DNA from: Alphaproteobacteria bacterium
GTDB lineage: Bacteria; Pseudomonadota; Alphaproteobacteria; CASFRQ01; SAAU01
Direction: 5' to 3'
DNA length: 64,000 nucleotides
Assembly (NCBI GenBank): GCA_009929265.1
Contig: SAAU01000001.1
Coordinates: 58,245-122,244 of the forward strand
Shown: positions 32,023 to 53,208 of the stretch, piece by piece
Layout of the letters: each line of letters begins with the position of its first letter
Numbering within the stretch: position 1 is the first letter of the stretch
Translations under genes and position numbers: made by a program
The notes under the pieces: generated by a model
Database searches by the model: none
The model's input: only the letters and a program-made list of their open reading frames with translations
What the model was told of the DNA's origin: nothing

Positions 32023-32023
32023 A

Positions 32024-36346: not shown

Positions 36347-36598
36347 ATGTTAAATGCCGTTTCGGATCGGATTTTCGTTAGGTTAAAAGAGGCGCCTAAA
36401 AAAAGTTCTCTTATTCTAACTGATTCTCTAAAAGGGATTTCAAATCAAGGAATTGTAGAAAGTGTAGGGCCTCTTGTTTATTCTGTTAAAAAAGGACAAG
36501 AGGTTCTTTTTCATTGCTTTGATGAGCTGCCAACCCCTGAAAAAGGAGTGGTTGTTATTCGAGAATCAAGCATTTTAGGAATTTATGAAAATGAGTAA
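36347..36598 (+). CDS. GroES-like 10-kDa co-chaperonin-fold protein (phage-encoded?)
   Basis: 83 aa. The N-terminus reads DRIFVRLKEAPKKSSLIL and the C-terminus reads VVIRESSILGIYE. These run parallel to GroES DRVIVKR...GGIVL and MSESDILAIVE. The 3' end overlaps the next ORF. Confidence 0.35.
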   Translation: MLNAVSDRIFVRLKEAPKKSSLILTDSLKGISNQGIVESVGPLVYSVKKGQEVLFHCFDELPTPEKGVVVIRESSILGIYENE

Positions 36599-38444: not shown

Positions 38445-38470
38445 CCCTTAATACAAGAAAAAGGTGAGGT

Positions 38471-38689
38471 ATGGTAAAAAGAAAAACGCCTCCAAAAGAT
38501 ATGAAAAAAATCTGGTTAGAGGTTTTTGATAAAATGGGTGGAATTGAAGGATTGCTTTCTTGGGCAAATGAAAATCAAAATGAATTTTATAAAATTTGCA
38601 CAAAGCTTTTTTCAATTGAAATAAAAGATAAAGATGAAAAGCCAAATCAGGTTCTTGTTAAATTTTTGGAAGATAAGAAGTTAAATTAA
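38471..38689 (+). CDS. hypothetical phage-module protein (72 aa)
   Basis: The ORF is co-directional and tightly packed within the phage-derived block. Confidence 0.2.
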   Translation: MVKRKTPPKDMKKIWLEVFDKMGGIEGLLSWANENQNEFYKICTKLFSIEIKDKDEKPNQVLVKFLEDKKLN

Positions 38690-38757
38690 GTTATTTTATT
38701 AACAAGCTATAAAAGAAGGTTAAATTTATTTTAGCCTTCTTTTTTTATGGAGGAATT

Positions 38758-38985
38758 ATGGCCTTTATTAACAGCCTATTTCAGACAGATTTTGAGTTGC
38801 CCAATGGTGAAAAAGTCTCTTCTTTAAAAGAAGCAGAAGAAAAAATGAACCAGCTTGGGATAACTTTATCAAGCAATTATTCAGAGGATTATTACAAGAA
38901 AAAACGTCTGAGTAATACGAAAAAAGAGAAGGAAGATCTCTTCAATCTCTTTATTTTAAACTACAAAAGGAGTATTTGGTTATGA
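38758..38985 (+). CDS. hypothetical phage-module protein (75 aa)
   Basis: The ORF is co-directional within the phage block. Confidence 0.2.
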   Translation: MAFINSLFQTDFELPNGEKVSSLKEAEEKMNQLGITLSSNYSEDYYKKKRLSNTKKEKEDLFNLFILNYKRSIWL

Positions 38986-39084
38986 CAACTAAAACAAGAG
39001 AAGAATTAGAAAAACTTTTTTCTTCTTTGCCGAAAACTATAAAAGAAGAAAAACATAAAGAGGGGGAGAAATCCTCAAGTCATT

Positions 39085-39519
39085 TTGGAGAAATTAGCTT
39101 CCCTTTATCAGGTTTCATTTCCATCAAAGCCCCCTCTTCAAAAAGGGGAAAATAAGGATAAACCCCTTCTTCAGAAGGCTTTATCTTTACTAAAATCCTT
39201 TGATGACGCGGTTGATGAAGCGGGGACAAAAAAGCACCCCTTCTTTAATGACGTTTCTTTAGAAATGGCTTCCCTTTTGAAAAATAAGCTCGTCTCCTCT
39301 TTGGAAGAGGCTTATGAAAAAGCCGTTTGGCTTAACCCAAAAATTAGAAATTCTTTAATCGAAGAAAAAACGCTTCAAACAATAAAGAAAAAAGTCGAAG
39401 AATCCGAAAAGGCCAAGGAAGCCTCCTTTTCGGTTAAGGGAAAAATGACTGGACAATCAGATCTTTCAAAGCTTTCAACGAGAGATCTTTTGGAATTTCA
39501 ATTCCGGAATTTAGACTAA
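39085..39519 (+). CDS. hypothetical helical phage-module protein (possible scaffold)
   Basis: 144 aa, alpha-helical and Lys/Glu-rich. An overlapping ORF at 38983-39156 in another frame may mean a frameshifted single gene. Confidence 0.2.
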   Translation: MEKLASLYQVSFPSKPPLQKGENKDKPLLQKALSLLKSFDDAVDEAGTKKHPFFNDVSLEMASLLKNKLVSSLEEAYEKAVWLNPKIRNSLIEEKTLQTIKKKVEESEKAKEASFSVKGKMTGQSDLSKLSTRDLLEFQFRNLD

Positions 39520-39546
39520 ATTTTAACTTAAAAAAAGGAAAACAAA

Positions 39547-39795
39547 ATGAGTAATTCAAATTATAATGATATTTTTACGACAACATTAGAAAGCAGAACA
39601 GGAAAATTGGCTGATAATGTTTCCGATAGCAACGCTCTTCTTTCTAGATTGAGAGAAAAGAAGAATATGGAGAATATCCAGAAACTACCCTTCCAGAAGA
39701 TGGCACTTGGTCCAATTATGTTTCAACAGGTTCTTCTGGAAGTGGGACTGTTTTGGCGTTGCGCTTTAAAAAAAATAATCGAGAAACACGTATGA
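39547..39795 (+). CDS. hypothetical phage-module protein (82 aa)
   Basis: The ORF is co-directional within the phage block. Confidence 0.2.
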   Translation: MSNSNYNDIFTTTLESRTGKLADNVSDSNALLSRLREKKNMENIQKLPFQKMALGPIMFQQVLLEVGLFWRCALKKIIEKHV

Positions 39796-39840
39796 AAAAC
39801 ATTGCGTTAAACTACTTTATTAAAGTAAAGGAGGAAGAAA

Positions 39841-40191
39841 ATGTCGCATAAAATTACCCCTGATGGGATTTCTATTACGCAAGGAGATTCTCTATATCTT
39901 CCTATTACTTTTAATGGGATGGATATTACGAATGCCACCTTAAATATGCAGGTGAGCTCTCAGGATTTGAAGACCCTTTTCATTGATAAGAAAGTCTCAA
40001 CACATATCGATGCTGCAAACGGGAAAACGGCTCTTAACTTAATGCCGTCAGATATAAATATTCCCGTTGGCGACTATGTGACAGATATGGAACTTTGCCT
40101 TTTAGATGGTCAAATCTTGACCTTTTACCCTGAAAGAACAGAAAAACAAGCCTTTTTTAGAGTCCTTGCCCAAGTGACAAAGGAGGAATAA
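39841..40191 (+). CDS. hypothetical phage structural protein (beta-rich, 116 aa)
   Basis: AGGAGG-like RBS (AAGGAGGAAGAAA) sits before the ATG. Predicted beta-strand-rich composition. Confidence 0.25.
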   Translation: MSHKITPDGISITQGDSLYLPITFNGMDITNATLNMQVSSQDLKTLFIDKKVSTHIDAANGKTALNLMPSDINIPVGDYVTDMELCLLDGQILTFYPERTEKQAFFRVLAQVTKEE

Positions 40192-41112
40192 ATGTCTGAA
40201 ATGAATTTATTTTTTGATGAAACAACGGGATTAAGCTTGGACATCAAAGAAGAAGCCTTAGACGTCTCAATAAATGAGGCAGAATTAACTGTATATCCAG
40301 AAGGCCTTAGCTTTATTCATAATGGAGAAGATGAAATAAAGGCCTTTGTTGAAAAGGTTTCAAAACCCGAGCTCAATACTTTTGTTTTAGAAGAAAAAAA
40401 GCCTGAATTAACAGCGTTTACTCAAGAAAAATTAACTGCGTTAGGCACTCAATATCAAACCTATAACACTCAATTAAATCAGCAAATAGATGAGAATAAG
40501 TCCGAAATGGAAGCCCTTTATAGCGCAACAAATACGCTAAAAGAAGAGGCCGCTTTACAAAAAGAGAAAGCCTTTCTTTGGGCGACAAAAATGGATGGAG
40601 AGGTTGAGGAAGGCCAAGGGTATAGCTCAAAATACTATGCATCGCTTTCCGATGAAAAAGAAGACAAGTCAAACAAAATTGCCCTTTTTCATGAAACGCC
40701 AGATGATACGCATTATCCTTCCGAAAAGCTGGTTTATGACGCTTTAGCCAATAAAATAAATTTGGAGGCGTCAAATCTATCTGATTTAGGTAAGAAAAAT
40801 TTGTCAGAATGGTCTCTTCCTGGGGACAGTTTTATAAATGTGACGCCAATTGCCTCCGGAGGAACTTATACAGCACCAAAAAATGGCTATTTTTCTTTTT
40901 TAGCAACAGCTCTTGATTCAACGGCCAGTATGATTTGCTTTAATGATGAGAGGCGGTTTTATCAATCGGTTTTTTATTGCAATGGATCGTCCCTTTTCCT
41001 CGGGCTAACAATTCCAATTCGGCAAGGTCAAACCATAACCTTTAGTTTTAAGAGTATCGAAAATCTGAATGTTTCATTCATCTATACAAAGGGAGAAGAG
41101 CTATGTTTATAG
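40192..41112 (+). CDS. hypothetical phage structural protein (306 aa; capsid or receptor-binding candidate)
   Basis: An acidic N-terminal half is followed by a beta-rich C-terminal region. It is translationally coupled to the upstream ORF (stop-start TAAATG). Confidence 0.25.
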   Translation: MSEMNLFFDETTGLSLDIKEEALDVSINEAELTVYPEGLSFIHNGEDEIKAFVEKVSKPELNTFVLEEKKPELTAFTQEKLTALGTQYQTYNTQLNQQIDENKSEMEALYSATNTLKEEAALQKEKAFLWATKMDGEVEEGQGYSSKYYASLSDEKEDKSNKIALFHETPDDTHYPSEKLVYDALANKINLEASNLSDLGKKNLSEWSLPGDSFINVTPIASGGTYTAPKNGYFSFLATALDSTASMICFNDERRFYQSVFYCNGSSLFLGLTIPIRQGQTITFSFKSIENLNVSFIYTKGEELCL

Positions 41113-41465
41113 GCTATCAAAATGGGAAAATTGTAGCTCAAGCTTTAACACAAGAAATTCTTGAATCCAAGCTTTGCGTTTCATTTGATGAAATTGAAGA
41201 GACAAGTCAAAATGTGATTGAAAAAGAAGGAAAACTTTATCTTGAAAATGAAATACCTTTAACGACAAAAGAAGAAATTGAAGAAAAAAGAAAATATCTT
41301 TATCAAATAAAAGTCGACTGTTTAACAGCCGAAATTTCAAGATTAAGAGACGAAATTCAAACTTTAGAAATTCAAGAGAAAATAGCAGATTTAATTTCAA
41401 AAAGGAATGAAATTGTTGATGAAATAAAGCTTCAAAATCCTTACCCAGATGAAGGAGAAAGCTAA
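41103..41465 (+). CDS. hypothetical coiled-coil protein (120 aa)
   Basis: Heptad-like E/K/I-rich sequence. It overlaps its neighbours by a few nt. Confidence 0.2.
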   Translation: MFIGYQNGKIVAQALTQEILESKLCVSFDEIEETSQNVIEKEGKLYLENEIPLTTKEEIEEKRKYLYQIKVDCLTAEISRLRDEIQTLEIQEKIADLISKRNEIVDEIKLQNPYPDEGES

Positions 41466-41728
41466 TGGCCACAAAATCAGAAAATGCGCTTTTAGCTCGA
41501 ATTGATGAGCGAACTTTAGAAATTCAAAAAAAGCTAGATAAACATATCCTTTTGATGGATTCGCTTTCTATAAAGGTGAATGAGCACGAACTTATTTTAT
41601 TTGGAAAAAAAGGAAATGATGGGCTGATTTCAAAAGTTGAATATCATGACAAAATTTTACTTAAAGCCATTGCTATTGGAGGGTTTTTACTTGTTTCTTT
41701 TGAATTTTTGAAAGGGGTTTTATTATGA
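41465..41728 (+). CDS. holin-like small membrane protein (C-terminal TM)
   Basis: 87 aa with a single C-terminal TM segment (AIAIGGFLLVSFEFL). It overlaps the endolysin start by 4 nt, which is the classic position for a holin or antiholin. Confidence 0.3.
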   Translation: MATKSENALLARIDERTLEIQKKLDKHILLMDSLSIKVNEHELILFGKKGNDGLISKVEYHDKILLKAIAIGGFLLVSFEFLKGVLL

Positions 41729-42078
41729 ATTTTTTTACAAAAAAAGAGCTTTCTTGCCCTTGTTGTGATTCCTATTTTTTCAAAGAAGAAACTTTAGAAA
41801 TGCTAGATGAAGCCCGAAAAAGGGCAGGGATTGCCTTTATTATCTCAAGCGCTTGTCGGTGCGAAAAACATAATAAAGAGGTGGGCGGAAGCCCGTTATC
41901 GGCGCATAAAACAGGGGAGGCTGTGGATCTTATTTTTCAAAATTCAAACGAGGCTTTTCTCATTTTGGAAAGCCTTATTTTTGTTGGATTTAGGCGGATA
42001 GGAATCAATTTCAAAAAGGGATTTATTCACGTGGATTCTTCAAAAACACTTCCCCAAGAGGTGTTATTTCACTATTAA
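41725..42078 (+). CDS. endolysin, peptidase M15A-type (L-alanyl-D-glutamate / D-Ala-D-Ala peptidase fold)
   Basis: Zn-ligand pattern: SACRCEKHNKEVGGSPLSAHKTGEAVDL (H-x6-D) and a later FIHVDS His. The protein is 117 aa. Confidence 0.7.
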   Translation: MNFFTKKELSCPCCDSYFFKEETLEMLDEARKRAGIAFIISSACRCEKHNKEVGGSPLSAHKTGEAVDLIFQNSNEAFLILESLIFVGFRRIGINFKKGFIHVDSSKTLPQEVLFHY

Positions 42079-42246
42079 TGACATAGTTTAAGGAGTTATT
42101 ATGAAAGAAAATTTAATTAAATTTTTAAAAGAAAATAAAAAGAAAATCATTACCTTTATCCTTTCGGGGATAGTGGCTGTCTTTGGGATTACCCTTCAAG
42201 AGGGGGCGCTTGATTCCTTAACTTCCCTTTTAAATGGGTTGATTTA

Positions 42247-42450
42247 ATGCAAAATTTTCTAATCGGTTGTTTTTTAGGAGGGGGCTTAGGCTTCCTCCTC
42301 TTTTTTTATGCCTACAAAAAGGGACGAAAAGATGAAAAAATCTATCAAAAATCAAAAAATCTACACCTCATATTGGAGCAAGAAAAAATTGAAAGCAGGC
42401 CTTGTCTTTCTGATGATGAACTTTATGACTGGTTGCGCGGCAAAAAATGA
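42247..42450 (+). CDS. putative i-spanin (Rz-like; N-terminal TM)
   Basis: 67 aa. The N-terminal TM segment reads FLIGCFLGGGLGFLLFFYAY and is followed by a charged helical segment. It sits immediately after the endolysin. Confidence 0.3.
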   Translation: MQNFLIGCFLGGGLGFLLFFYAYKKGRKDEKIYQKSKNLHLILEQEKIESRPCLSDDELYDWLRGKK

Positions 42451-42586
42451 ATGCCTTTGCCCTTTTTTCCCAAAACCTTCCCCAAAAATTGTCCAAGAAA
42501 TAGATTGCTCCAAAATGAAAGAGACATGCCTATGGCTTCAAGAACTTTATAAACTTAATAAAAAATTGGATCTGTGCCAACCCTAA
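42308..42586 (+). CDS. putative o-spanin (Rz1-like lipoprotein) overlapping the i-spanin in the +1 frame
   Basis: A basic n-region and hydrophobic core precede a lipobox-like FMTGC. The mature part is Pro/Cys-rich (CLCPFFPKPSPK...C...C). It starts inside the 42247 ORF in a different frame and extends beyond it, matching the overlapped Rz/Rz1 architecture. Confidence 0.3.
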   Translation: MPTKRDEKMKKSIKNQKIYTSYWSKKKLKAGLVFLMMNFMTGCAAKNECLCPFFPKPSPKIVQEIDCSKMKETCLWLQELYKLNKKLDLCQP

Positions 42587-42779
42587 AGAAAAAAATGCTG
42601 TTTTAATAAGAGAAACCCTAAAGATATTTTTTTATCTTAATGTTTTTTAATAACTCTTTGAATTCATTTTCAAAAAAATGTTACACTTTTTTTAAAAAGA
42701 TGCCTTTTTTAAGTTGATTATTTCGAAAAAATATTTATCCTTCTTGTTATTGTATCTTAAAACTTTCAAAGGAGGCATT

Positions 42780-43259
42780 ATGACCGATGAAGCTGCGTTA
42801 GAACAAACAAGAAAGGCCATTCAAAAGTGGAAAAAGAAAAGAGGTTCCCTTATTATGGCTTTGCATGAAATTCAAGGAATTTATGGCTATGTTCCTTGGG
42901 ATCATGCAAAAGTTGTAGCCGAAGAAATGGGGGTGGCTTTGGCCCGTATTTACGAAGTTTTAACCTTTTATAATTTCTTTAAGCTTGAATCTCCGGGAAA
43001 ATATATCATTTCTGTTTGTGATGGAACAGCGTGTCATATTAAAGGGGGCGCTTCGGTTATTGATGCTTTTGCAAAACATTTAAATATCAATCCAGGGGAA
43101 ACAACGCCTGACCGCCTTTTTCACATGCAAATTGTGCGGTGTTTAGGCTGTTGTGGATTGGCCCCTGTTGTGGTTGTAAATGGGAAAACATATGGAAAGG
43201 TCTCTCCTGCAGACGTTCCAAGTATTATTGATGAATGGAAAAAGAAGGAGGCCCTCTAA
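42780..43259 (+). CDS. hydC: [FeFe]-hydrogenase NuoE-like subunit (thioredoxin-like [2Fe-2S]; HydC/HndA-type)
   Basis: The NuoE family Cys pattern reads CDGTACHIKG...CLGCCGLAPV. The ATG at 42780 follows AAAGGAGG. The TAA stop overlaps the next ATG as TAATG. Confidence 0.8.
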   Translation: MTDEAALEQTRKAIQKWKKKRGSLIMALHEIQGIYGYVPWDHAKVVAEEMGVALARIYEVLTFYNFFKLESPGKYIISVCDGTACHIKGGASVIDAFAKHLNINPGETTPDRLFHMQIVRCLGCCGLAPVVVVNGKTYGKVSPADVPSIIDEWKKKEAL

Positions 43260-45070
43260 TGGATGAACTTACTCCAGAAATGAAAGAAAAGTTAAAGAAA
43301 CTCTACGCCACACAACGAGAAAACCTTGTTAAGATGAAGGAAGAGTTTTTGGTAAAAAAAGACTCCTACATTGCCTCTATTTACACCTGTAATAGCACAG
43401 GATGTCACTCTGGCGGGGCAGAAAATGTAATTGATGCCTTTAAGGAATCTTTGGAAATTTACGGTCTTCAAGATAAAGTGCGGATGGTGTCAACGGGATG
43501 TATGGGGTTGTGTGCACACGGACCTTTGGCGCGTGTTGAAATTAAAGGGCAAAAGCCTTTTCTTTATAAAGCCGTTGATGGCATGCTTGCTAGATTGATT
43601 GTAGCCGAGCATCTTCTTCCTGCTTTGAAAGCTTTAAAAGAGGGGAAAGCTGAAAACTTTGAAGTTAATGCTTTCTTAAAACAAAGAGAGCTTTCATTAG
43701 ATTTACCTTTCTTTACAAAACAAAAGAAAGTTGTCTTGAAAAATTTAGGGCACTCTGATCCAGAAGATTTTGGCGAATACCTAGCAACGGGTGGGTATCA
43801 AGCCTTTATTAAAGCTCTTGATACCATGACTCCAAAAGAAGTGCGCGATGTTATCCGTGAAAGCGGCCTTCGTGGACGTGGGGGTGGGGGATTTCCTACC
43901 GCCAAAAAGTGGGATTTACTTGCTGCTGCAACAGGAGATGAGAAGTTTGTCATCTGTAATGGCGATGAAGGGGATCCTGGCGCCTATATGGATGCGTGTA
44001 TCTTAGGGGGCGGCGCACATAGCGTTTTAGAAGGCATGATGATTGAGGCCTATGCCACAGGGGCAACACATGGTTGGTTCTATGTTCGGGCGGAATATCC
44101 TTTGGCTATTGAACGGGTTGAACAAGCCTTAAAACAAGCCAAAAAATATGGCCTTTTAGGAAAAAATATTTTAGGAACAGATTTCAGCTTTATGGCCGAG
44201 CTTCGTTATGGCGCAGGAGCTTTTGTCTGCGGTGAAGAAACAGCTTTAATGGAATCTTTGGAAGGTAAACGAGGCACCCCTCATCCACGTCCACCATACC
44301 CTACAGAAAAAGGACTTTTCGGGAAACCTTCGGCTATCAACAATGTTGAAACTTTGGCCAATGTCCCTGTTATTATTAGGGAAGGGGCAAAATTCTTTAA
44401 CTCTGTTGGAACAGAAACCAGTAAAGGAACCAAGGTTTTTGCCTTAACGGGGAAAGTTAAACACAGTGGATTGGTTGAAGTTCCTATGGGGATGAGCGTC
44501 TCTGAGATTGTTAATGATATTGGAGGGGGCACAAGCTCTGGAAAACCGTTTAAGGCGGTTCAAACAGGGGGCCCTTCTGGAGGGGTTATTCCTGCCAATA
44601 AGCTTGATATGCCTATTTGCTATGAAGAGCTTAAGAAAATCGGCTCTATGATGGGATCTGGCGGAATGATTGTCATGGATCAAGATGACAGTATGGTTGA
44701 AATTGCCAAATTCTATTTATCCTTTACGGTTGATGAATCTTGCGGAAAGTGTGCGCCTTGTCGAATTGGCGGCTATCAAATGCTTGAGCTAATGAAGAAA
44801 ATTGCAAGAGGAGACGGGAAAGAAGATGATATTCAAGAGCTGATTGAAATCGGAAGTGTGATGAAGAAAGCTTCTCTTTGCGCTTTAGGTCAAACAGCAC
44901 CAAACCCTGTTTTATCGACTTTAAGATTTTTTAGAGAGGAATATGAAGCTCTCCTTAAAAAAGATGACGATGAAGAAGAGGGCTGTCAAGCTGCTCTTCC
45001 CAAAAAAACAGATAAAGAAGAAAGCAAAGAAAAGCCAGAATGTGCAACGTGTTCCGGATGTGGGAGATAG
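43259..45070 (+). CDS. hydB: [FeFe]-hydrogenase NuoF-like NAD(P)H/FMN subunit with N-terminal [2Fe-2S] domain (HydB/HndC-type)
   Basis: An N-terminal 4-Cys thioredoxin-like module is present. The FMN/NADH site reads GRGGGGFPTAKKW. The NuoF 4Fe-4S motif reads ESCGKCAPCRIGG and the C-terminal end reads CATCSGCGR. GAAGGAGG sits 7 nt before the ATG at 43259. Confidence 0.85.
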   Translation: MDELTPEMKEKLKKLYATQRENLVKMKEEFLVKKDSYIASIYTCNSTGCHSGGAENVIDAFKESLEIYGLQDKVRMVSTGCMGLCAHGPLARVEIKGQKPFLYKAVDGMLARLIVAEHLLPALKALKEGKAENFEVNAFLKQRELSLDLPFFTKQKKVVLKNLGHSDPEDFGEYLATGGYQAFIKALDTMTPKEVRDVIRESGLRGRGGGGFPTAKKWDLLAAATGDEKFVICNGDEGDPGAYMDACILGGGAHSVLEGMMIEAYATGATHGWFYVRAEYPLAIERVEQALKQAKKYGLLGKNILGTDFSFMAELRYGAGAFVCGEETALMESLEGKRGTPHPRPPYPTEKGLFGKPSAINNVETLANVPVIIREGAKFFNSVGTETSKGTKVFALTGKVKHSGLVEVPMGMSVSEIVNDIGGGTSSGKPFKAVQTGGPSGGVIPANKLDMPICYEELKKIGSMMGSGGMIVMDQDDSMVEIAKFYLSFTVDESCGKCAPCRIGGYQMLELMKKIARGDGKEDDIQELIEIGSVMKKASLCALGQTAPNPVLSTLRFFREEYEALLKKDDDEEEGCQAALPKKTDKEESKEKPECATCSGCGR

Positions 45071-45075
45071 GAAAT

Positions 45076-46836
45076 ATGACAAAAATGATTAAGCTAAAAA
45101 TTGACAATCTCGACGTTGAAGTCCCTGAAGGAACCTCCATTCTTGATGCGGCTAAAAAGGTCCAAGTTGAAATTCCAACTTTATGTTATCACCCCGATTT
45201 GGAGCCAACAGCAGCTTGTGGGCTTTGTATTGTAAAGGCCAATGGACGTATGCTTCGTTCTTGTTGCACCCCGGTAATGGAGGGAATGGAAGTCATTACG
45301 CGGGATCCTGAAATTGTAAATGAACGCAAAACTGTGCTGAAGCTTATTTTAAGTCGGCATCCCAATGAATGCTTGACCTGTCTTAAGAATGAAACATGTG
45401 AGTTGCGTCAAAAGGCGGCCGAATTTGGTTTCCGGCAAGATAATTTCAAGAAAATCTCTCTTTCGCACGAAGATGCACCTTTGGATTGTTCGACGCGCTC
45501 TATTGTCTTGGATCCAAGAAAGTGTATTTTATGTGGCCGATGTGTTCAAGTTTGCCAAAATGTTCAAAATGTTTGGGCTTTGTCCTTCTTGAATAGAGGG
45601 TTAAAAACAAGAATTGCTGTCGCAGGGAACTTAACTTTGGATGAATCTCCTTGTATTAAATGTGGTCAATGTGTGGCTCACTGTCCAACAGGGGCTTTGA
45701 CAGAGTATGATGATACAGGAATTGTCTGGCGGTCTTTAATGAATAAAGAAAAATATTGTGTGGCTCAAATTGCTCCAGCTGTTCGGGTTGCCATTGGGGA
45801 AGCCTTTGGGAAAGATCCAGGGGAAATCTCAACGAAAAAGCTTTATTCTGCCCTTCGTCGATTAGGCTTTGACGCCGTCTTCGACACCAACTTTGGCGCC
45901 GATGTGACAATTATGGAGGAAGGCTCCGAGTTCGTGGAACGTTTTGCTCATGGAAAAGGCTCTTTACCTTTGATTACGTCTTGCTGTCCAGCTTGGGTAG
46001 ATTATATGCAGAAATATTATCCTGATATGATTGAGCATTTTTCAACTTGCAAATCTCCGCATGAAATTGTGGGCGCTTTGACAAAGACCTATTATGCCGA
46101 AAAGAAAGGCCTAGATCCAAAGGATATTATGATGGTTTCTATTATGCCTTGCACGGCCAAAAAATATGAAATCAGACGCAATGAATCTATGTATGCAAGT
46201 GGATGTCAAGATGTTGACGTGTCTTTAACAACCAGAGAACTTGCCCGAATGTTAAAGCAAGCTGGAATCGTCTTTGATGAATTAAAAGATGAGGAAGCAG
46301 ATAGTCCTTTAGGGGAATACTCTGGCGCGGGAACAATCTTTGGATTTTCAGGCGGCGTGATGGAAGCAGCTTTAAGAACGGCCTATCGCTTGGTTGAGGG
46401 AAAAGAGCTTGATGACGTAGACATCACCCCATTAAGAGGCGTGGACGAAGGCATTAAAACAATGGAAATGCCTTTGGGCGGCAAAACTTTGAAAGTGGCC
46501 GTTGCTCAAGGAACTGGAAATGTTGGAAAGCTCCTTGACGAAGTGCGTGATGCCTTAAATAGAGGGGAAGAATCTCCTTACCAATTTATTGAAGTTATGG
46601 CTTGTCCTGGCGGATGTATTGGGGGCGGTGGACAACCCACTGGTGTCACGAATAAAGTTAGAAAAGAACGAACAAAAGGGCTTATTATGGACGATAAGAA
46701 GTCTTCTATTCGGAAATCTCACCTTAACCCTGACGTTCAAAAACTCTATGAGGAGTATTTAGATAAACCTTTAAGTGAAAAGGCGCATCACCTTCTTCAT
46801 ACGACATATAACGCGGTTCCTGTTTATAAAAAGTAA
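45076..46836 (+). CDS. hydA: [FeFe]-hydrogenase catalytic subunit
   Basis: The N-terminal plant-type [2Fe-2S] reads C..C.C...C. A His-ligated [4Fe-4S] reads HPNECLTCLKNETC. Two ferredoxin-type CxxCxxCxxxCP motifs follow. All three H-cluster signatures are present: L1 TSCCPAW, L2 MPCTAKKYE and L3 MACPGGCIGGGGQP. The ATG at 45076 follows GGAG. Confidence 0.9.
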   Translation: MTKMIKLKIDNLDVEVPEGTSILDAAKKVQVEIPTLCYHPDLEPTAACGLCIVKANGRMLRSCCTPVMEGMEVITRDPEIVNERKTVLKLILSRHPNECLTCLKNETCELRQKAAEFGFRQDNFKKISLSHEDAPLDCSTRSIVLDPRKCILCGRCVQVCQNVQNVWALSFLNRGLKTRIAVAGNLTLDESPCIKCGQCVAHCPTGALTEYDDTGIVWRSLMNKEKYCVAQIAPAVRVAIGEAFGKDPGEISTKKLYSALRRLGFDAVFDTNFGADVTIMEEGSEFVERFAHGKGSLPLITSCCPAWVDYMQKYYPDMIEHFSTCKSPHEIVGALTKTYYAEKKGLDPKDIMMVSIMPCTAKKYEIRRNESMYASGCQDVDVSLTTRELARMLKQAGIVFDELKDEEADSPLGEYSGAGTIFGFSGGVMEAALRTAYRLVEGKELDDVDITPLRGVDEGIKTMEMPLGGKTLKVAVAQGTGNVGKLLDEVRDALNRGEESPYQFIEVMACPGGCIGGGGQPTGVTNKVRKERTKGLIMDDKKSSIRKSHLNPDVQKLYEEYLDKPLSEKAHHLLHTTYNAVPVYKK

Positions 46837-46851
46837 ACAAACCGTAAAAAC

Positions 46852-46883
46852 AAAAGCCCTTCATTGATTTGAAGGGCTTTTTC
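46852..46883 (+). terminator. rho-independent terminator after hydA
   Basis: The hairpin is gcccttc attgatt tgaagggc, followed by a T5 run. Confidence 0.6.
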
Positions 46884-46890
46884 AATTTAA
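46852..46890. repeat. approximately 40-bp direct repeat, copy 1 (contains the terminator hairpin)
   Basis: Copy 1 reads aagcccttcattgatttgaagggctttttcaatttaag. It is nearly identical to copy 2 at 48641-48680 (aggcccttcattgatttgaagggcctttttaatttaag). Confidence 0.7.
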
Positions 46891-46954
46891 GAAAATACAT
46901 TGACAGGAAAACTAATAATTGATAAAAATCTATGAAATACACGAAAGGTTTTTT

Positions 46955-47719
46955 ATGAGATATTTTTTCTTAATTCTTTTTTTTCCTTCTCTTTTAATGG
47001 CAGCGGAGGATTCTGCGTGCGTTTTTCAACATATTGACAAATGTTATTCTTGTGATGAGTTAAAAGCAATTGGACTTTCTGTTTCTAAAGAAGAAAAAGA
47101 TTCAGATGCTTTAAAAAAATGCAAAAATAGAAATGTTTATATAAGTTGGATGATTCCCCATGTTTTCTCCGTTTTAAAAAAGTGTCCAAAAGAAATGCCT
47201 TTGTTAAATGGCATGGGCCTTTGTTTTTCCTGCGCTGAAAAAGAACCTGTTTATCAAAGTTTTAAAAAGGATTTCCCTTTTTCTGGAGAATATACCTGCC
47301 CAAATAGGGTTTTGATAAGAGAAAATTCTTTCTTTGCTTACTCATATATAAGCCAATGCCCAAAAGACAAACCTTTAGTGGGATATCACGGAGATTGCTA
47401 TAGCTGCGATACGCCTCTTTCCATTAACATTAGTGAAAATGAAGTTTTATGTCGCAGATTTTGCGATGGAAAGCGCTTTTTTAATGGAGGATACTGTATG
47501 TCTTGCTCCTTTGTTCCCCTTAACGAATATCCGAATAAAGATTTTTGTATTTCTTGCGGGGGATATTGGGATAAAACGCATTGCAGGGAAAGAAGGGAAG
47601 GGGATGACCTTCAATTCTGCCACAAAAATAGCGATTGCGCAAAAGATGAGATTTGTTTTTATAATAGATGCAAAGCCTTTACAGAAGAAGAAAAAAAATC
47701 CCTTTATGGAAAGTTTTAA
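46955..47719 (+). CDS. secreted Cys-rich repeat protein, paralogue A
   Basis: The signal peptide reads MRYFFLILFFPSLLMAA. At least 24 Cys lie in repeated CPK(D/E)xPL...CxSC units. A conserved C-terminal module runs CRRFCDGKRFFNGGYC...CISCGGYWDKTHC...CHKNSDCAKDEICFYNRCKAFTEEEKKSLYGKF. Confidence 0.5.
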   Translation: MRYFFLILFFPSLLMAAEDSACVFQHIDKCYSCDELKAIGLSVSKEEKDSDALKKCKNRNVYISWMIPHVFSVLKKCPKEMPLLNGMGLCFSCAEKEPVYQSFKKDFPFSGEYTCPNRVLIRENSFFAYSYISQCPKDKPLVGYHGDCYSCDTPLSINISENEVLCRRFCDGKRFFNGGYCMSCSFVPLNEYPNKDFCISCGGYWDKTHCRERREGDDLQFCHKNSDCAKDEICFYNRCKAFTEEEKKSLYGKF

Positions 47720-47722
47720 ATT

Positions 47723-48637
47723 ATGAAAAAAACACTTTTATTTGCTTGCGCTTTTTTAATCTTTTCTTCACCCCTTTTACAGGCCAAAGAAAAACCTAAA
47801 TGCGATTTTTATCGCTACGACGGGTGTCATTCATGTGAAGAATTACAATCTTTTATAATCACAAGAAATAATCCAGAAACAAATTTAGGAAAATGCAAAA
47901 ACAGATCTATTTCTTATACAGGGTATCGGGATTCTTTAGGGTATCTTTCAGAGTTAAAAACCTGTCCAAAAGGCTATATTAAAGATTTTTATAGAGATTG
48001 TGTAAAAAAAATAGACTTTATAAATAAGTATCCTGGGCCTAACACTATTGTAAATCAAGAAAAATGCCCAAAGGATAAACCTCTCTATTTAATCGAGGAA
48101 AAACGGTGTGAAAGCTGTGACTTTCCGGACCCTGTATTTCTTTCTTCAGAGGCTAATAACCATAAAGCAGGGGCTGAATATGTATGCAAAAATCGGGTAT
48201 TTTTTAGCTTTGGAGCAGCATGTCCTTATTCCTTTTTCAGTCAATGTCCAAAAGATAGCCCCCTTCTTGATGATAAATTAAATTGCTTTAGTTGTGAATA
48301 TGATGGCCCCATAGAAACACGTAATAACCCCTATTTTTGTCGTAAATTTTGCGATGGAAAGCGGTTCTTCAACGGCTTTAAGTGTTTAAAATGTTCAAAA
48401 GATATTAACTATATTCCAGATAAAGAAACTTGCGTTTCTTGCGGAGGATATTGGAACAAAACCTTTTGCCGGAAAAAAAAGGAAGGGGACGCCTCTCAAA
48501 TCTGTCATGAAGACAGCGATTGTGCAAAAGGAGAAGTTTGTCTTTACGATAGATGTATCCCCTTTACAGAAGAAGAAAAAAAGGGACTTTACGGCATTTT
48601 TCAATCAGACATAGATAAGTTAGAAGAAAATAGATAA
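47723..48637 (+). CDS. secreted Cys-rich repeat protein, paralogue B
   Basis: The signal peptide reads MKKTLLFACAFLIFSSPLLQA. It has the same CPKDxPL...CxSC repeats. The C-terminal module is almost colinear with paralogue A (CRKFCDGKRFFNGFKC...CVSCGGYWNKTFC...CHEDSDCAKGEVCLYDRCIPFTEEEKKGLYGIF). Confidence 0.5.
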   Translation: MKKTLLFACAFLIFSSPLLQAKEKPKCDFYRYDGCHSCEELQSFIITRNNPETNLGKCKNRSISYTGYRDSLGYLSELKTCPKGYIKDFYRDCVKKIDFINKYPGPNTIVNQEKCPKDKPLYLIEEKRCESCDFPDPVFLSSEANNHKAGAEYVCKNRVFFSFGAACPYSFFSQCPKDSPLLDDKLNCFSCEYDGPIETRNNPYFCRKFCDGKRFFNGFKCLKCSKDINYIPDKETCVSCGGYWNKTFCRKKKEGDASQICHEDSDCAKGEVCLYDRCIPFTEEEKKGLYGIFQSDIDKLEENR

Positions 48638-48640
48638 AAG

Positions 48641-48680
48641 AAAGGCCCTTCATTGATTTGAAGGGCCTTTTTAATTTAAG
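48641..48680. repeat. approximately 40-bp direct repeat, copy 2 (bidirectional terminator between the Cys-rich gene and secB)
   Basis: The hairpin ggcccttcattgatttgaagggcc is followed by a T5 run. It lies 3' of both the plus-strand Cys-rich gene and the minus-strand secB. Confidence 0.7.
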
Positions 48681-50911: not shown

Positions 50912-51372
50912 TAGAAGATTTTGACTTGTGGGATAAGATTAAGAAATCAATACAACCTATTGATAAAAAAAGTTATATTAAAGAAGATGACTTCCAAAAC
51001 CCCCTTCAATCTTTTGCAAAAAAAATAGCTATCCATCGACATTTTCCAGAGGTTTTATCTTTTAAGCCCGAACGAAAAGAGCTTTCTTTTTCACTAGATC
51101 TTCATGGTAAAACATTGGATGAAGCCTTCTCTTTACTTTCCCATTTTATTGTGGAACATCGAAGACGGGGAACAGAGTTTGTCACAATTATCACTGGAAA
51201 AGGACTAAAGAATGAAGGACTTTTGAAAAAAAATGTTCCTTTATGGCTTGAAAATGAGAAAATAAAAAAGCATATTGTCTCTACGCGAAAAATATTGGAT
51301 TCAAGAGCACAATATGGCTCTTTTTTGGTTTATTTGAAACCGAAAGGTAAGAAAAAAGAATGTATGTATTAG
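50908..51372 (+). CDS. Smr-domain protein
   Basis: The Smr core reads [37 protein letters not shown]. The start overlaps the mltA stop (ATGA). Confidence 0.7.
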
Positions 51373-52794: not shown

Positions 52795-53208
52795 CTATTT
52801 TCGAATAAACATAGCGTAAAAAGGCTTACTTGCAAAAAGGACAAACAAAATTGCATGGTATTCCCAATGAATAGCAGCTAAGCTTGGATAAATCTTTACA
52901 AGTAAAAACGAAAAGAATGTCACAGAAATAAGGGTTAGAACCTGACATTCTGGCGTCCAAACCTTTAGAGTATTTTGTATTTTCTCAAAAACACTTTCGC
53001 CTTTTATTGAAAGAATTTTCATCCATATCGGTGAGGCGGCAAGAAGCGCTGTAATAAGGTAAACAGCCCAATTGAGGCTTAAAATCTCTGGATAAAATAT
53101 GGCAATTAAAAATCCCATAAAAACATAAGCCATTTCAATAAAGCTCATATTCAAAATGGTCATTTCACTTCTTAATTTATCTTGAAGAAAAGTATATGTT
53201 GTCATCAT
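52795..53208 (-). CDS. hypothetical small integral membrane protein
   Basis: About 138 aa with 4 predicted TM helices. I trimmed the start to the ATG at 53208, which has AAAGGGGGA 4 nt upstream. The ORF-track N-terminus (to 53385) runs through the tRNA gene and is an artefact. Confidence 0.4.
   Translation of the reverse strand: MMTTYTFLQDKLRSEMTILNMSFIEMAYVFMGFLIAIFYPEILSLNWAVYLITALLAASPIWMKILSIKGESVFEKIQNTLKVWTPECQVLTLISVTFFSFLLVKIYPSLAAIHWEYHAILFVLFASKPFYAMFIRK

What the first reader, a model, noticed from the sequence alone, without database searches (positions are those of the whole stretch)
42780..46836. Three-gene NAD(P)H-linked [FeFe]-hydrogenase operon (NuoE-like, NuoF-like, HydA) in an AT-rich alphaproteobacterial chromosome
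The catalytic-subunit homologue has all three H-cluster signatures. These are TSCCPAW, MPCTAKKYE and MACPGGCIGGGGQP. It also has the full accessory-cluster complement of one [2Fe-2S], one His-ligated [4Fe-4S] and two ferredoxin-type [4Fe-4S] clusters.

It is translationally coupled to the flavoprotein. Their TAATG and near-abutting gene boundaries show this. That flavoprotein is a 24-kDa/NuoE-like and 51-kDa/NuoF-like pair, which is the architecture of trimeric, potentially electron-bifurcating HydABC/Hnd enzymes.

The surrounding synteny (secB, Tim44-like, mltA; rplU-rpmA; mfd) is alphaproteobacterial, and [FeFe]-hydrogenases are uncommon in that class. The NuoE/NuoF-type hydrogenase-associated subunits of hydrogenosomes of anaerobic eukaryotes have long been argued to have alphaproteobacterial affinity, so a host-associated alphaproteobacterium carrying this exact module is evolutionarily interesting. 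No hydE, hydF or hydG maturase is visible in the window.
Basis: partly seen in the sequence, partly recalled or inferred. Interest (0 to 1): 0.85.

Follow-up and report, generated by a model that had tools for sequence, protein, structure and literature searches.

The report
Gut alphaproteobacterial HydABC [FeFe]-hydrogenase operon
This is a real, intact three-gene operon for an NAD(H)-linked hydrogen-producing/consuming enzyme in an uncultured gut-type alphaproteobacterium; that lineage was already reported to carry it, but its flavoprotein subunit has lost the parts that related enzymes use to talk to ferredoxin, so it probably does not "bifurcate" electrons.

Summary
hydC (42780-43259), hydB (43259-45070) and hydA (45076-46836) form one tightly packed + strand operon that ends in a hairpin terminator. 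HydA has all three H-cluster motifs and every accessory-cluster ligand, and it passes NCBIfam's cutoff for "NADH-dependent [FeFe] hydrogenase, group A6". The contig is an NCBI MAG labelled Alphaproteobacteria bacterium.

The interpretation needs two corrections.

First, the operon is not rare in this lineage. About 40 gut and rumen alphaproteobacterial MAG species carry the same hydCBA, and their HydA sequences form one clade. Degli Esposti et al. (2016) already reported this NuoE/NuoF/HydA cluster, plus HydEFG, in gut metagenomic alphaproteobacteria.

Second, HydB lacks the ferredoxin branch here and in every alphaproteobacterial relative. The C-terminal 2x[4Fe-4S] domain is absent, and four of the five ligands of the adjacent Zn/[2Fe-2S] site are substituted. 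So the operon fails the definition of the bifurcating Bfu core. It most likely catalyses a direct, reversible NADH/H2 reaction.

HydB and HydC are of the HydBC/Bfu type, not the complex-I or hydrogenosomal NuoEF type. Strong purifying selection (dN/dS 0.02-0.09) argues that the genes are in use. Maturases in the source genome could not be checked.

The parts
42587..42779 (+). AT-rich intergenic region between the phage-like spanin ORFs and hydC. It presumably holds the hyd promoter, and the RBS AAGGAGG lies at about 42769-42775.
   Evidence: Sequence read. No strong sigma-70 consensus was found in it, so the promoter is inferred, not shown.
42780..43259 (+). hydC: a 159-aa NuoE/24-kDa-like thioredoxin-like [2Fe-2S] subunit. 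Ligands are C80-x4-C85 and C121-x3-C125.
   Evidence: PF01257 E 2.7e-48. Exact sequence equals NCB49156.1. Cys motifs located.
43259..45070 (+). hydB: a 603-aa NuoF/51-kDa-like flavoprotein. It has an N-terminal [2Fe-2S] domain, an FMN/NAD(H) core, SLBB and one [4Fe-4S], with no folded C-terminal domain. Its start overlaps the hydC stop (TAATG).
   Evidence: AlphaFold pLDDT is 90.1 for the body and below 50 for residues 572-603.
43388..43513 (+). HydB N-terminal [2Fe-2S] ligands: C44-x4-C49 ... C81-x3-C85. This is cluster 'B2' in the numbering of Katsyv et al.
   Evidence: The four Cys are conserved in all alphaproteobacterial homologues. T. kivui C82/C86 are the residues mutated in the deltaB2 variant (PMC10021017).
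43865..43894 (+). HydB glycine-rich FMN/NAD(H) loop GLRGRGGGGF.
   Evidence: and the alignment to 7t2r_B and 7q4v_B.
44741..44893 (+). HydB [4Fe-4S] cluster B1 (N3-like) ligands: C495-x2-C498-x2-C501 ... C541.
   Evidence: PF10589 E 9.6e-32. Located. Conserved in all homologues.
44984..45067 (+). HydB C-terminal tail of 28 residues where bifurcating HydB has an 80-90-residue 2x[4Fe-4S] domain. It contains C576-x18-C595-x2-C598-x2-C601. Its role is unexplained.
   Evidence: Predicted disordered. The 4 Cys are conserved in conspecific contigs L084 and L086 and, with different spacing, in the sister species L001, L002 and L081.
45076..46836 (+). hydA: a 586-aa catalytic [FeFe]-hydrogenase subunit of M3 architecture. 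It has an N-terminal [2Fe-2S], a His-ligated [4Fe-4S], two ferredoxin-type [4Fe-4S], the H-domain and a small-subunit-like C-terminus.
   Evidence: It scores 573.8 bits to T. kivui HydA1 (8a6t_A) and 565.9 bits to A. woodii HydA1 (7q4v_A).
45976..46638 (+). H-cluster motifs: L1 TSCCPAW (45976-45996), L2 MPCTAKKYE (46144-46170) and L3 EVMACPGGCIGGGGQP (46591-46638). Proton-path-like MEEGSE (45913-45930) and KSPHEIVG (46051-46074) lie nearby.
   Evidence: Aligned residue by residue with the active enzymes.
46847..46891 (.). Hairpin (AAAAGCCCTTCA-loop-TGAAGGGCTTTT) flanked by A and T runs, probably a bidirectional intrinsic terminator that closes the operon. A 91%-identical copy lies at 48636-48680.

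Best explanation
The locus is a chromosomal operon, hydC-hydB-hydA. It encodes a soluble heterotrimeric group A [FeFe]-hydrogenase of the HydABC type in an uncultured, AT-rich gut/rumen-type alphaproteobacterium.

Proposed electron path. The cofactor sites are shown from sequence; the path is inferred by homology to solved HydABC structures.
- NAD(H) binds at the FMN of HydB.
- Electrons pass through the HydB [4Fe-4S] cluster B1 into the HydA chain: the His-ligated [4Fe-4S] and the two ferredoxin-type [4Fe-4S].
- They end at the H-cluster, where protons and H2 interconvert.
- The HydC [2Fe-2S] and the HydB N-terminal [2Fe-2S] sit beside the flavin.

In this whole alphaproteobacterial clade HydB has lost the Zn/[2Fe-2S] hinge site and the C-terminal 2x[4Fe-4S] ferredoxin-docking domain. 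I therefore infer that the enzyme does not couple to ferredoxin. It would be a reversible, non-bifurcating NADH:H+ oxidoreductase derived from a bifurcating ancestor.

In a gut where H2 consumers keep H2 low, it would dispose of fermentative NADH as H2. At high H2 it could run in reverse and make NADH. The direction in vivo is not shown. Activity requires HydE, HydF and HydG encoded elsewhere in the genome, which is also not shown.
For: Identity and integrity:
- Domain hits and the NCBIfam score above cutoff.
- All H-cluster and Fe-S ligands are present.
- 47-51% identical alignment to the structurally solved T. kivui and A. woodii HydA and HydB.
- The HydB model has pLDDT 90 and superposes on BfuB subunits at TMq 0.82-0.85.

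Operon structure: RBS, TAATG overlap, 5-nt gap and terminator. The order hydC-hydB-hydA is conserved in 72-82 of 82 loci.

In use: dN/dS is 0.02-0.09 against conspecific contigs L084 and L086.

Loss of the ferredoxin branch:
- The tail after the core is 28 residues, against 80-90 residues with 8-10 Cys in Firmicutes, Spirochaetes, Elusimicrobia and Omnitrophica HydB.
- At the ligand positions of the A. mobile site (C438, C476, H525, C531, C536; PMC8880783) the window has S, A, L, D, C. All 37 alphaproteobacteria-labelled homologues have S-A/S-L or D-N-K there. Nearly all other phyla keep C-x-H-C-C; two PVC-group MAGs (L024, L048) do not.
- The tail is predicted to be unstructured.

Literature:
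- The C-terminal domain is the proposed ferredoxin site, and deleting it gives low bifurcation activity (PMC10021017).
- The Bfu family is defined by five clusters in BfuB, and non-bifurcating homologues lack B2-B5 (PMC9304861).
- NADH-only HydABC and Hyd-NuoEF enzymes exist and work at low H2 (PMC7311640, PMC13556243).

Lineage: HydG is encoded 6.5 kb from hydCBA in a rumen alphaproteobacterial MAG (TIGR03955, 898 bits). Maturases are reported in related gut MAGs (PMC4967309).
Against: - HydB carries the residue signatures that Losey et al. assign to bifurcating enzymes: A and M in GDPGAYMD, F in GAGAF and KFF, and GGPSG. My mapping of their numbering is by motif. These residues do not vary anywhere in my set, so they may simply record ancestry.
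- The N-terminal [2Fe-2S] of HydB, which the S. wolfei-type enzyme lacks and which matters for bifurcation in T. kivui, is retained.
- A conserved 4-Cys tail in the window's sub-clade could bind a metal or cluster and serve as a minimal ferredoxin contact.
- No biochemical data exist for any member of this clade.
- hydE, hydF and hydG, ferredoxin, PFOR and other hydrogenases of the source genome could not be examined.
Confidence: 0.6

Rival explanations
1. It is a canonical electron-bifurcating/confurcating HydABC (HydDB group A3). H2 would be made from NADH plus reduced ferredoxin together, with ferredoxin docking somewhere other than the lost domain, for example at the HydB N-terminal or HydC [2Fe-2S] modules or at the 4-Cys tail.
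For: - The closest solved relatives of all three subunits are bifurcating enzymes.
- Losey's bifurcating-type residues and GGPSG are present.
- The N-terminal [2Fe-2S] of HydB and HydC are retained.
- The 4-Cys tail is conserved within the sub-clade.
- Related gut MAGs encode PFOR and ferredoxin (PMC4967309).
Against: - Two separate elements of the ferredoxin branch are lost together across the whole clade.
- Most of the clade has only 0-1 Cys in the tail.
- Deleting the C-terminal domain in T. kivui leaves only low bifurcation activity (PMC10021017).
- It fails the Bfu definition (PMC9304861).
Confidence: 0.25
2. The operon is cargo (a 'moron') of the adjacent prophage and was brought in recently by the phage rather than being a chromosomal gene set.
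For: - hydC starts 194 bp after a phage lysis cassette, on the same strand: M15 endolysin 41725-42078 and overlapping spanin-like ORFs 42247-42586.
- The junction is conserved at 95-97% nucleotide identity in independent assemblies L084 and L085.
- Flanks differ in the sister species.
- Three 'UNVERIFIED Bacteriophage sp.' virome scaffolds carry hydCBA-like genes.
Against: - The HydA tree follows the host lineage, with one alphaproteobacterial clade across about 40 species that have varied flanks.
- GC3 and codon usage are host-like.
- No relative is present in IMG/VR.
- The virome scaffolds are unverified, of Firmicutes type (47-52% identity, GC 0.47-0.49), and show no phage genes shared with this window.
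- The phage module here is a remnant lacking about 7 kb of structural genes.
- Housekeeping genes (secB, Tim44-like, mltA, tsaD) follow directly.
Confidence: 0.07
3. The operon is a non-catalytic, sensory or decaying relic that makes no active hydrogenase, for example because maturases are absent.
For: No hydE, hydF or hydG lies in 64 kb. The genomes of this lineage are reduced (RF32 MAGs about 1.6 Mb; PMC8199421). mutL in the same window carries an in-frame stop.
Against: - Every cofactor ligand is intact, including the proton-relay Cys of TSCCP.
- There is no PAS or sensory domain.
- dN/dS is 0.02-0.09.
- HydG is present in relatives, and maturases in related MAGs are dispersed, not linked to hydA (PMC4967309).
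Confidence: 0.04

Closest known systems
Electron-bifurcating HydABC of Thermoanaerobacter kivui, Acetobacterium woodii and Thermotoga maritima (PDB 8a6t, 7q4v, 7p5h)
   Same: Same three subunits and gene order. HydA has the same M3 cofactor set (574 and 566 bits). The HydB core, the N-terminal [2Fe-2S], B1, the FMN loop and GGPSG are conserved. The HydB model superposes at TMq 0.82-0.85.
   Different: HydB lacks the C-terminal 2x[4Fe-4S] ferredoxin-like domain (clusters B3/B4 of Katsyv et al.) and the Cys/His Zn-site ligands. HydA lacks the extra C-terminal [2Fe-2S] domain of the T. maritima enzyme.
[quoted passage not shown]
   Same: A NuoE-like plus NuoF-like plus HydA arrangement with no C-terminal ferredoxin domain on the beta subunit. 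The predicted chemistry is the same, NADH to or from H2 without ferredoxin at low H2.
   Different: The window HydB keeps the N-terminal [2Fe-2S] and has the 'bifurcating-type' residues (A/M, F, GGPSG) instead of T/S, K/S/A, Y and no GGPSG. This looks like an independent loss, not membership of that clade.
hymABC-like NuoE/NuoF/M3-HydA cluster of gut metagenomic alphaproteobacteria: 'Acetobacter sp. [quoted passage not shown] 2016, PMC4967309)
   Same: Same kind of organism, same three-gene cluster, and the same evolutionary argument about hydrogenosomes. MAGs labelled 'uncultured Azospirillum sp.' (L049, L053) fall inside the same HydA clade as the window.
   Different: It is a different species: the closest species-representative HydA is 82% identical. 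That paper did not address the HydB cluster complement. I did not compare the CAG sequences themselves.
Hydrogenosomal [FeFe]-hydrogenase working with NuoE/NuoF (24/51-kDa) subunits: Trichomonas, and Caecomyces churrovis (PMC13556243)
   Same: A functional analogy: a flavoprotein pair feeding NADH electrons to an [FeFe]-hydrogenase. The fungal complex is experimentally non-bifurcating.
   Different: The hydrogenosomal subunits are of the complex-I type. Fungal NuoF groups with mitochondrial complex I and away from HydB (PMC13556243). The window HydB scores 255-278 bits to mitochondrial 51-kDa chains but 515-618 bits to HydB-type chains, and it has an extra N-terminal domain.
FdsB/FdsG diaphorase of NAD+-dependent formate dehydrogenases (PDB 6vw7, 6tg9)
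   Same: The same overall HydB domain layout, an N-terminal thioredoxin-like domain plus a NuoF core with no C-terminal ferredoxin domain (TMt 0.93-0.94). These enzymes are non-bifurcating (PMC9304861).
   Different: Only 37-38% identical. The partner is a molybdopterin subunit, not an H-cluster protein.

Membership tests
Group A catalytic [FeFe]-hydrogenase (HydA, M3 type) | H-cluster binding motifs L1 (TSCCPxW), L2 (MPCxxKxxE) and L3 (ExMACxxGCxxGGGQP) | tested here: met
   All three are present at 45976-45996, 46144-46170 and 46591-46638. They align with the active T. kivui and A. woodii enzymes.
Group A catalytic [FeFe]-hydrogenase (HydA, M3 type) | H-domain plus small-subunit-like C-terminus, and an N-terminal F-domain with [2Fe-2S], a His-ligated [4Fe-4S] and two ferredoxin-type [4Fe-4S] | tested here: met
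   PF02906 3.1e-95, PF02256 2.7e-23, PF13510, PF10588 and Fer4 x2. Cys/His patterns. TIGR02512 scores 509.9 bits (cutoff 406) and NF040763 scores 791.6 bits (cutoff 765).
Group A catalytic [FeFe]-hydrogenase (HydA, M3 type) | Maturases HydE, HydF and HydG encoded in the same genome | not testable with these tools
   None is in the 64-kb window. The rest of the 222-kb contig and of the MAG could not be fetched. HydG is present near hydCBA in the related MAG locus L027.
Trimeric HydABC (HydDB group A3, NCBIfam 'A6') by gene context | hydA adjacent to, and co-oriented with, NuoE-like and NuoF-like genes | tested here: met
   hydC-hydB-hydA have a 1-nt overlap and a 5-nt gap. The order is conserved in related loci.
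Bfu family, electron-bifurcating BfuBC core (Schut et al. 2022) | BfuB FMN site plus [4Fe-4S] B1, and BfuC [2Fe-2S] | tested here: met
   GLRGRGGGGF loop; C495, C498, C501 and C541; HydC C80, C85, C121 and C125.
Bfu family, electron-bifurcating BfuBC core (Schut et al. 2022) | N-terminal [2Fe-2S] of BfuB | tested here: met
   C44, C49, C81 and C85 are conserved.
Bfu family, electron-bifurcating BfuBC core (Schut et al. 2022) | Cys/His-ligated [2Fe-2S] or Zn site between the core and the C-terminal domain (A. mobile C438, C476, H525, C531, C536) | tested here: not met
   The window has S478, A516, L565, D571 and C576. All alphaproteobacterial homologues lack the site, while HydB of nearly all other phyla in the set keeps C-x-H-C-C; the exceptions are two PVC-group MAGs (L024, L048).
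Bfu family, electron-bifurcating BfuBC core (Schut et al. 2022) | [quoted passage not shown] | tested here: not met
   There is no Fer4 hit in HydB. The 28-residue tail has 4 Cys, against 8-10 Cys in 80-90 residues elsewhere. The tail has pLDDT below 50.
Bfu family, electron-bifurcating BfuBC core (Schut et al. 2022) | Ferredoxin- and NAD-coupled (bifurcating) activity | not testable with these tools
   This needs enzyme assays.
Non-bifurcating NADH-dependent HydAB(C), S. wolfei/S. aciditrophicus clade (Losey et al. 2020) | Beta-subunit residues T/S232, K/S/A234 and Y367, with no GGPSG (T. maritima numbering) | tested here: not met
   The window has A, M, F and GGPSG. Positions were mapped by motif and by the offsets, not by direct alignment to T. 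maritima HydB.
Non-bifurcating NADH-dependent HydAB(C), S. wolfei/S. aciditrophicus clade (Losey et al. 2020) | Beta subunit lacks the additional Fe-S domains of bifurcating enzymes | tested here: inconclusive
   The C-terminal clusters and the Zn/[2Fe-2S] site are absent, but the N-terminal [2Fe-2S] is retained.
Complex I / hydrogenosomal NuoE-NuoF (24/51-kDa) pair | NuoF of about 420-470 aa without an N-terminal [2Fe-2S] domain, with closest similarity to complex-I subunits | tested here: not met
   HydB is 603 aa with an N-terminal [2Fe-2S] domain. It falls below the cutoffs of all NuoF equivalog models (447 bits against 559). It scores 515-618 bits to HydB-type chains and 255-368 bits to complex-I NuoF chains.
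Sensory [FeFe]-hydrogenase (HydS, group C) | PAS or other signalling domain, and altered proton-relay residues | tested here: not met
   No such domain was found. TSCCP, MEEGSE and KSP are conserved.

The most novel reading that the evidence does not exclude
The gut/rumen alphaproteobacterial HydABC clade may be a natural 'de-bifurcated' Bfu enzyme. It keeps the flavin-site residues and the N-terminal [2Fe-2S] that have been proposed as hallmarks of bifurcation. It has cleanly lost both the Zn/[2Fe-2S] hinge site and the ferredoxin-docking domain. A similar loss appears independently in two PVC-group MAGs (L024, L048). If the enzyme is NADH-only, the clade would show that the published residue criteria mark ancestry rather than mechanism, and it would offer a ready-made natural control for working out which elements bifurcation needs. 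A more exotic variant is that the conserved 4-Cys tail of the window's sub-clade binds a single cluster that replaces the lost domain.
Probability: 0.4. Interest if true: 0.5.

Novelty: new member of a known kind. Interest (0 to 1): 0.3.

Why it matters
The mere presence of a HydABC-type operon in a gut alphaproteobacterium adds little. It was published in 2016 and is routine in MAG annotation.

Two points are useful.

1. Metagenomic surveys that count every hydA with NuoE/F neighbours as 'group A3, electron-bifurcating' would misassign this clade, which is common in ruminant and human guts. That would bias H2-budget models, because an NADH-only hydrogenase produces H2 only at low H2 partial pressure and can run in reverse.
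2. The clade puts two published sets of bifurcation criteria in conflict: cluster content against signature residues. It is therefore a cheap test case for the mechanism.

For the origin of hydrogenosomes the locus offers no new support. Its flavoprotein subunits are of the HydBC type, with Spirochaetes, PVC-group bacteria, Elusimicrobia and Omnitrophica as nearest neighbours. They are not derived from alphaproteobacterial complex I.

Tried and rejected
1. Finding hydE, hydF and hydG of the source genome.
- The source contig (222 kb; proteins NCB49156-NCB49168) is not retrievable. The look-up of encoding contigs has no record for its GyrA and returned only a 1-kb Logan contig for HydC.
- I took a verified alphaproteobacterial HydG (L027) as a query. 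HydG is so conserved (78-80% identity even to Clostridia) that the source copy cannot be recognised in the list.
- The listing of cluster members returned no accessions for ten NCBI candidates. This was a dead end.

2. Phage cargo hypothesis.
- No HydA relative, tail-fibre-like protein or portal of this element is in IMG/VR.
- The INPHARED hits to HydA are unverified virome scaffolds of Firmicutes type.
- No att-like direct repeats bracket the phage module.
- I rejected this as the main explanation.

3. Recent horizontal transfer judged from composition. The operon's GC of 0.41-0.43 looked high against 0.33-0.36 in the flanks. But GC3 (0.33-0.36) and codon usage are typical of the window, and gyrA, mfd and tsaD have similar GC. 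Rejected.

4. Rfam and tRNA scans for lineage markers found only tRNA-Glu, which is uninformative.

5. Synteny with relatives. Only the three hyd genes are shared with the 82 fetched loci, so context gave no functional partners.

6. A sigma-70 promoter upstream of hydC. No convincing match was found.

7. Literature searches found no paper that describes the HydB truncation in these bacteria. That does not prove none exists.

Full report
**Observation**

Three + strand ORFs occupy 42.7-46.8 kb.

Pfam and NCBIfam identify them as follows:
- A NuoE-like thioredoxin-like [2Fe-2S] protein.
- A NuoF-like flavoprotein with Complex1_51K, SLBB, NADH_4Fe-4S and an extra N-terminal [2Fe-2S] segment.
- An M3-type [FeFe]-hydrogenase with Fer2_4, NADH-G_4Fe-4S_3, two Fer4, Fe_hyd_lg_C (E 3e-95) and Fe_hyd_SSU. 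It scores 791.6 bits on NF040763 'NADH-dependent [FeFe] hydrogenase, group A6', whose cutoff is 765.

The sequence gives these gene boundaries:
- hydC starts at ATG 42780, behind AAGGAGG.
- The hydC stop and the hydB start overlap as TAATG, so hydB is 43259-45070 (603 aa).
- hydA most likely starts at ATG 45076, five bases after the hydB TAG. That gives 586 aa, in line with the 583-586 aa of its homologues.
- A strong hairpin with flanking A and T runs at 46847-46891 closes the operon.

They are located.

**Source organism**

- GyrA of the window is 100% identical to NCB49168.1, HydA to NCB49158.1 and HydC to NCB49156.1. All three come from one 221,961-bp contig of an NCBI MAG called 'Alphaproteobacteria bacterium'.
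- In that record HydA is annotated only as '4Fe-4S dicluster domain-containing protein'. In a second, more than 90% identical MAG it is 'NADH-dependent [FeFe] hydrogenase, group A6' (MDD4519771.1).
- Every named GyrA homologue at 70-77% identity is also an alphaproteobacterial MAG.
- The secB / Tim44-like / mltA neighbourhood fits that class. This rests on established knowledge.
- The closest HydA in one genome per GTDB species is 81-82% identical. One is a contig in an 'uncultured Alphaproteobacteria' bin. The other sits in a bin labelled Holdemanella, evidently mis-binned.
- About 35 further species-level MAGs follow at 56-70% identity. They are labelled Alphaproteobacteria, Rhodospirillales or 'Azospirillum sp.' and come from sheep, yak, deer, reindeer and human gut samples.
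- The ruminant MAG paper that produced many of these bins places its reduced alphaproteobacterial genomes in order RF32 (PMC8199421). Assigning the window to RF32 is my inference and was not tested.

**How common is the operon in the lineage?**

- hydC-hydB-hydA is conserved in nearly all 82 fetched loci, whereas the flanks are not.
- In a neighbour-joining tree of HydA, every alphaproteobacteria-labelled sequence falls in one clade with two main branches. Its neighbours are Spirochaetes, Fibrobacter, PVC-group bacteria, Omnitrophica and Elusimicrobia, and Firmicutes are distant. The tree is coarse, with no support values.
- GC3 and codon usage of the three genes are ordinary for the window.
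- Conspecific contigs from other samples (L084, L086; 95-99% nucleotide identity) give dN/dS of 0.02-0.09.

The operon is therefore an old, selected trait of this gut lineage. It is not a recent oddity.

Degli Esposti et al. [quoted passage not shown] They also found HydE, HydF, HydG and PFOR in the human-gut metagenomic alphaproteobacteria Acetobacter sp. [quoted passage not shown] In their table the maturase genes are not adjacent to hydA. So the lack of maturases in a 64-kb window says little.

**The flavoprotein is not a standard bifurcating HydB**

HydB's best solved relatives are the B subunits of bifurcating enzymes: A. mobile NiFe-HydABCSL at 618 bits, A. woodii at 597, T. kivui at 541 and T. 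maritima at 515. But the alignment stops short of their C-termini.

Across the fetched loci the pattern is as follows:
- HydB of Firmicutes, Spirochaetes, Elusimicrobia, Omnitrophica and Fibrobacter ends in 80-90 residues with 8-10 Cys, the 2x[4Fe-4S] ferredoxin-like domain.
- The window and all alphaproteobacterial homologues end 28-50 residues after the core, with 0-4 Cys.
- The ligands of the neighbouring site are also gone. This site was modelled as a 4Cys+His [2Fe-2S] in A. mobile (C438, C476, H525, C531, C536; PMC8880783) and as Zn2+ in the FeFe enzymes (PMC10021017).
- At those positions the window has S, A, L, D, C. Its branch reads S-A/S-L and the other alphaproteobacterial branch reads D-N-K.
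- Nearly all non-alphaproteobacterial HydB keep C-x-H-C-C. Two PVC-group MAGs (L024, L048) show the same double loss on a different branch of the HydA tree, which suggests independent events.

An AlphaFold model is confident for residues 1-571 (mean pLDDT 90, pTM 0.89) and gives pLDDT below 50 for 572-603. It superposes on BfuB subunits at TMq 0.82-0.85. It has the same domain layout as the non-bifurcating FdsB of NAD-dependent formate dehydrogenases (TMt 0.93-0.94).

**What the literature says about these parts**

- Katsyv et al. place ferredoxin on the HydB C-terminal domain (clusters B3/B4). They report low bifurcation activity when it is deleted (PMC10021017).
- Schut et al. define the Bfu family by an invariant BfuBC core with five clusters in BfuB. 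They note that non-bifurcating homologues, including S. wolfei Hyd1ABC, lack B2-B5 (PMC9304861).

By that definition the window enzyme is not a Bfu member. It has B1 and the N-terminal [2Fe-2S] but lacks the other three clusters.

On the other hand, the residue-level criteria of Losey et al. (PMC7311640) come out 'bifurcating': A and M in GDPGAYMD, F rather than Y, and GGPSG. These residues are invariant across my whole set, with or without the C-terminal domain. I read them as marks of descent from a bifurcating ancestor.

So the enzyme is not a member of the S. wolfei-type clade either. It probably works like that enzyme but arrived there separately.

**Mechanism**

Shown by sequence:
- An NAD(H)/FMN site.
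- An unbroken set of cluster ligands from HydB B1 through the HydA F-domain to the H-cluster.
- An intact proton-relay Cys.

Inferred by homology to the solved complexes:
- Electrons run FMN to B1, then to the HydA clusters, then to the H-cluster.
- Without a ferredoxin exit, the reaction is NADH + H+ = NAD+ + H2.

That reaction is uphill in the H2-forming direction under standard conditions. It is feasible at the low H2 maintained by methanogens and other H2 consumers, as shown for S. wolfei, S. aciditrophicus and the Caecomyces hydrogenosome complex (PMC7311640, PMC13556243). At high H2 it would run towards NADH. I cannot tell which direction dominates in vivo.

I put 0.6 on this non-bifurcating reading and 0.25 on residual bifurcation through another contact. 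Reasons for the latter:
- The N-terminal [2Fe-2S] is retained.
- The window's sub-clade keeps a 4-Cys tail, C576-x18-C595-x2-C598-x2-C601. It is conserved in conspecific strains despite an indel in the linker.
- The sister species has C-x4-CxxCxxC.

That tail is unexplained.

**Hydrogenosome link**

HydB and HydC here belong to the HydBC/Bfu lineage:
- HydB is below the cutoffs of all NuoF equivalog models.
- Complex-I NuoF chains score 255-368 bits, with mitochondrial 51-kDa chains at the low end (255-278), against 515-618 bits for HydB-type chains.

The 2026 study of the fungal hydrogenosomal complex finds its NuoF with mitochondrial complex I and distant from HydB (PMC13556243). The resemblance to the hydrogenosomal Hyd+NuoEF system is thus functional, not a shared module. 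I did not build a tree with eukaryotic sequences.

**Surroundings**

- Directly upstream, on the same strand, lies a podovirus-like remnant: terminase large subunit 34869-36203, portal 36585-38444, tail-fibre-like genes, M15 endolysin 41725-42078 and overlapping spanin-like ORFs to 42586.
- Its junction with hydC is conserved in other assemblies. Upstream of 39666 the element is mosaic.
- Compared with a related faecal-virome scaffold, it lacks about 7 kb of structural genes.
- I found no att repeats and no relative in IMG/VR.
- The lineage-wide phylogeny and host-like codon usage argue against phage carriage of hydCBA.
- Downstream, two paralogous Cys-rich secreted proteins are bracketed by two copies of the terminator hairpin. 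Housekeeping genes follow.

**Verdict**

This is a real and almost certainly functional HydABC-type [FeFe]-hydrogenase operon. It is ordinary for its lineage and already described in kind.

The worthwhile residue is the clade-wide loss of the ferredoxin branch of HydB. That makes 'bifurcating' the less likely label, and it sets cluster-based and residue-based criteria for bifurcation against each other.

Noticed in passing
window 34869-42586 (+): A cryptic podovirus-like prophage remnant sits immediately upstream of hydC. It comprises terminase large subunit, a P22/Mx8/Brucella-phage-like portal, tail-fibre-like genes, a possible holin (41465-41728), M15 endolysin (41725-42078), and an overlapping pair of spanin-like ORFs (42247-42450 with an N-terminal TM segment; 42308-42586 with a lipobox-like MTGC). 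The right part from 39666 on is 95% identical in another assembly (L084), while the left part differs there (mosaic). About 7 kb of structural genes present in the related virome scaffold MT835830.1 are missing here.
   Followed up: partly
window 46919-48637 (+); repeats at 46847-46891 and 48636-48680: Two tandem paralogous genes (45% identical) encode signal-peptide-bearing, Cys-rich proteins with no Pfam match. They show repeated C-x-SC and CPK[DE]xPL motifs and a conserved C-terminal 'CHxxSDCAKxExC...FTEEEKKxLYG'. They are bracketed by two 91%-identical copies of a 45-nt hairpin. In contig L086 a further 258-aa gene is inserted right after the hydA terminator.
   Followed up: partly
window 11080-12933 (-), stop at 11998-12000: mutL is interrupted by one in-frame TGA after codon 311. 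The N-terminal ATPase half and the MutL_C dimerisation domain are otherwise in the same frame. This could be a real nonsense mutation (possible mutator), a read-through or recoding site, or an assembly error.
   Followed up: partly
window 44984-45067 (HydB residues 576-603): A conserved 4-Cys tail (C-x18-CxxCxxC-GR) replaces the lost ferredoxin-like domain. It is present only in the window's sub-clade. The spacing differs in the sister species, and it is absent from the rest of the alphaproteobacterial clade.
   Followed up: partly
window 60832-63906 (-): Genes for the beta (OAD_beta, E 5e-156) and alpha (carboxyltransferase plus biotinyl domain) subunits of a Na+-translocating oxaloacetate-decarboxylase-type pump. 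This is an anaerobic energy-conserving device and fits a fermentative lifestyle.
   Followed up: no
window 51360-52706 (+): tsaD (tRNA t6A synthesis) appears fused to a C-terminal thioredoxin domain in one 448-aa ORF.
   Followed up: no
window 20451-32770: A low-GC (0.28-0.37) surface-glycan-type cluster. It holds an FdtA-like isomerase, GT2 and GT1 glycosyltransferases, a SPASM/twitch-type radical-SAM protein, a hexapeptide acyltransferase, two FabH-like KAS III genes, a DegT aminotransferase and a DUF1796 papain-like protein.
   Followed up: no
L087 (MT835800.1) and L088 (MT835590.1): Two 'UNVERIFIED: Bacteriophage sp.' scaffolds from a human faecal virome carry complete hydC-hydB-hydA sets of Firmicutes type (42-53% identical to the window's; GC 0.47-0.49). 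No phage genes are shared with this window. They are probably bacterial DNA in a virus-like-particle preparation.
   Followed up: partly
L001 (CAVDQP010000018.1) and L008 (CAZXTR010000013.1): Contigs carrying alphaproteobacterial-clade hydCBA sit in bins labelled Holdemanella biformis and Lactobacillales. These are likely binning errors in public MAGs.
   Followed up: no
window 53308-53383 (-) and ORF 52795-53385 (-): tRNA-Glu(CTC) is the only RNA gene found in the window. The 196-aa ORF listed over it has no family match and is probably spurious.
   Followed up: no
L024 (Planctomycetota MAG) and L048 (Phycisphaeraceae MAG): HydB in these PVC-group MAGs also lacks both the Zn/[2Fe-2S]-site ligands and the C-terminal 2x[4Fe-4S] domain, although their HydA sequences are not in the alphaproteobacterial clade. 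This suggests independent loss of the ferredoxin branch.
   Followed up: partly
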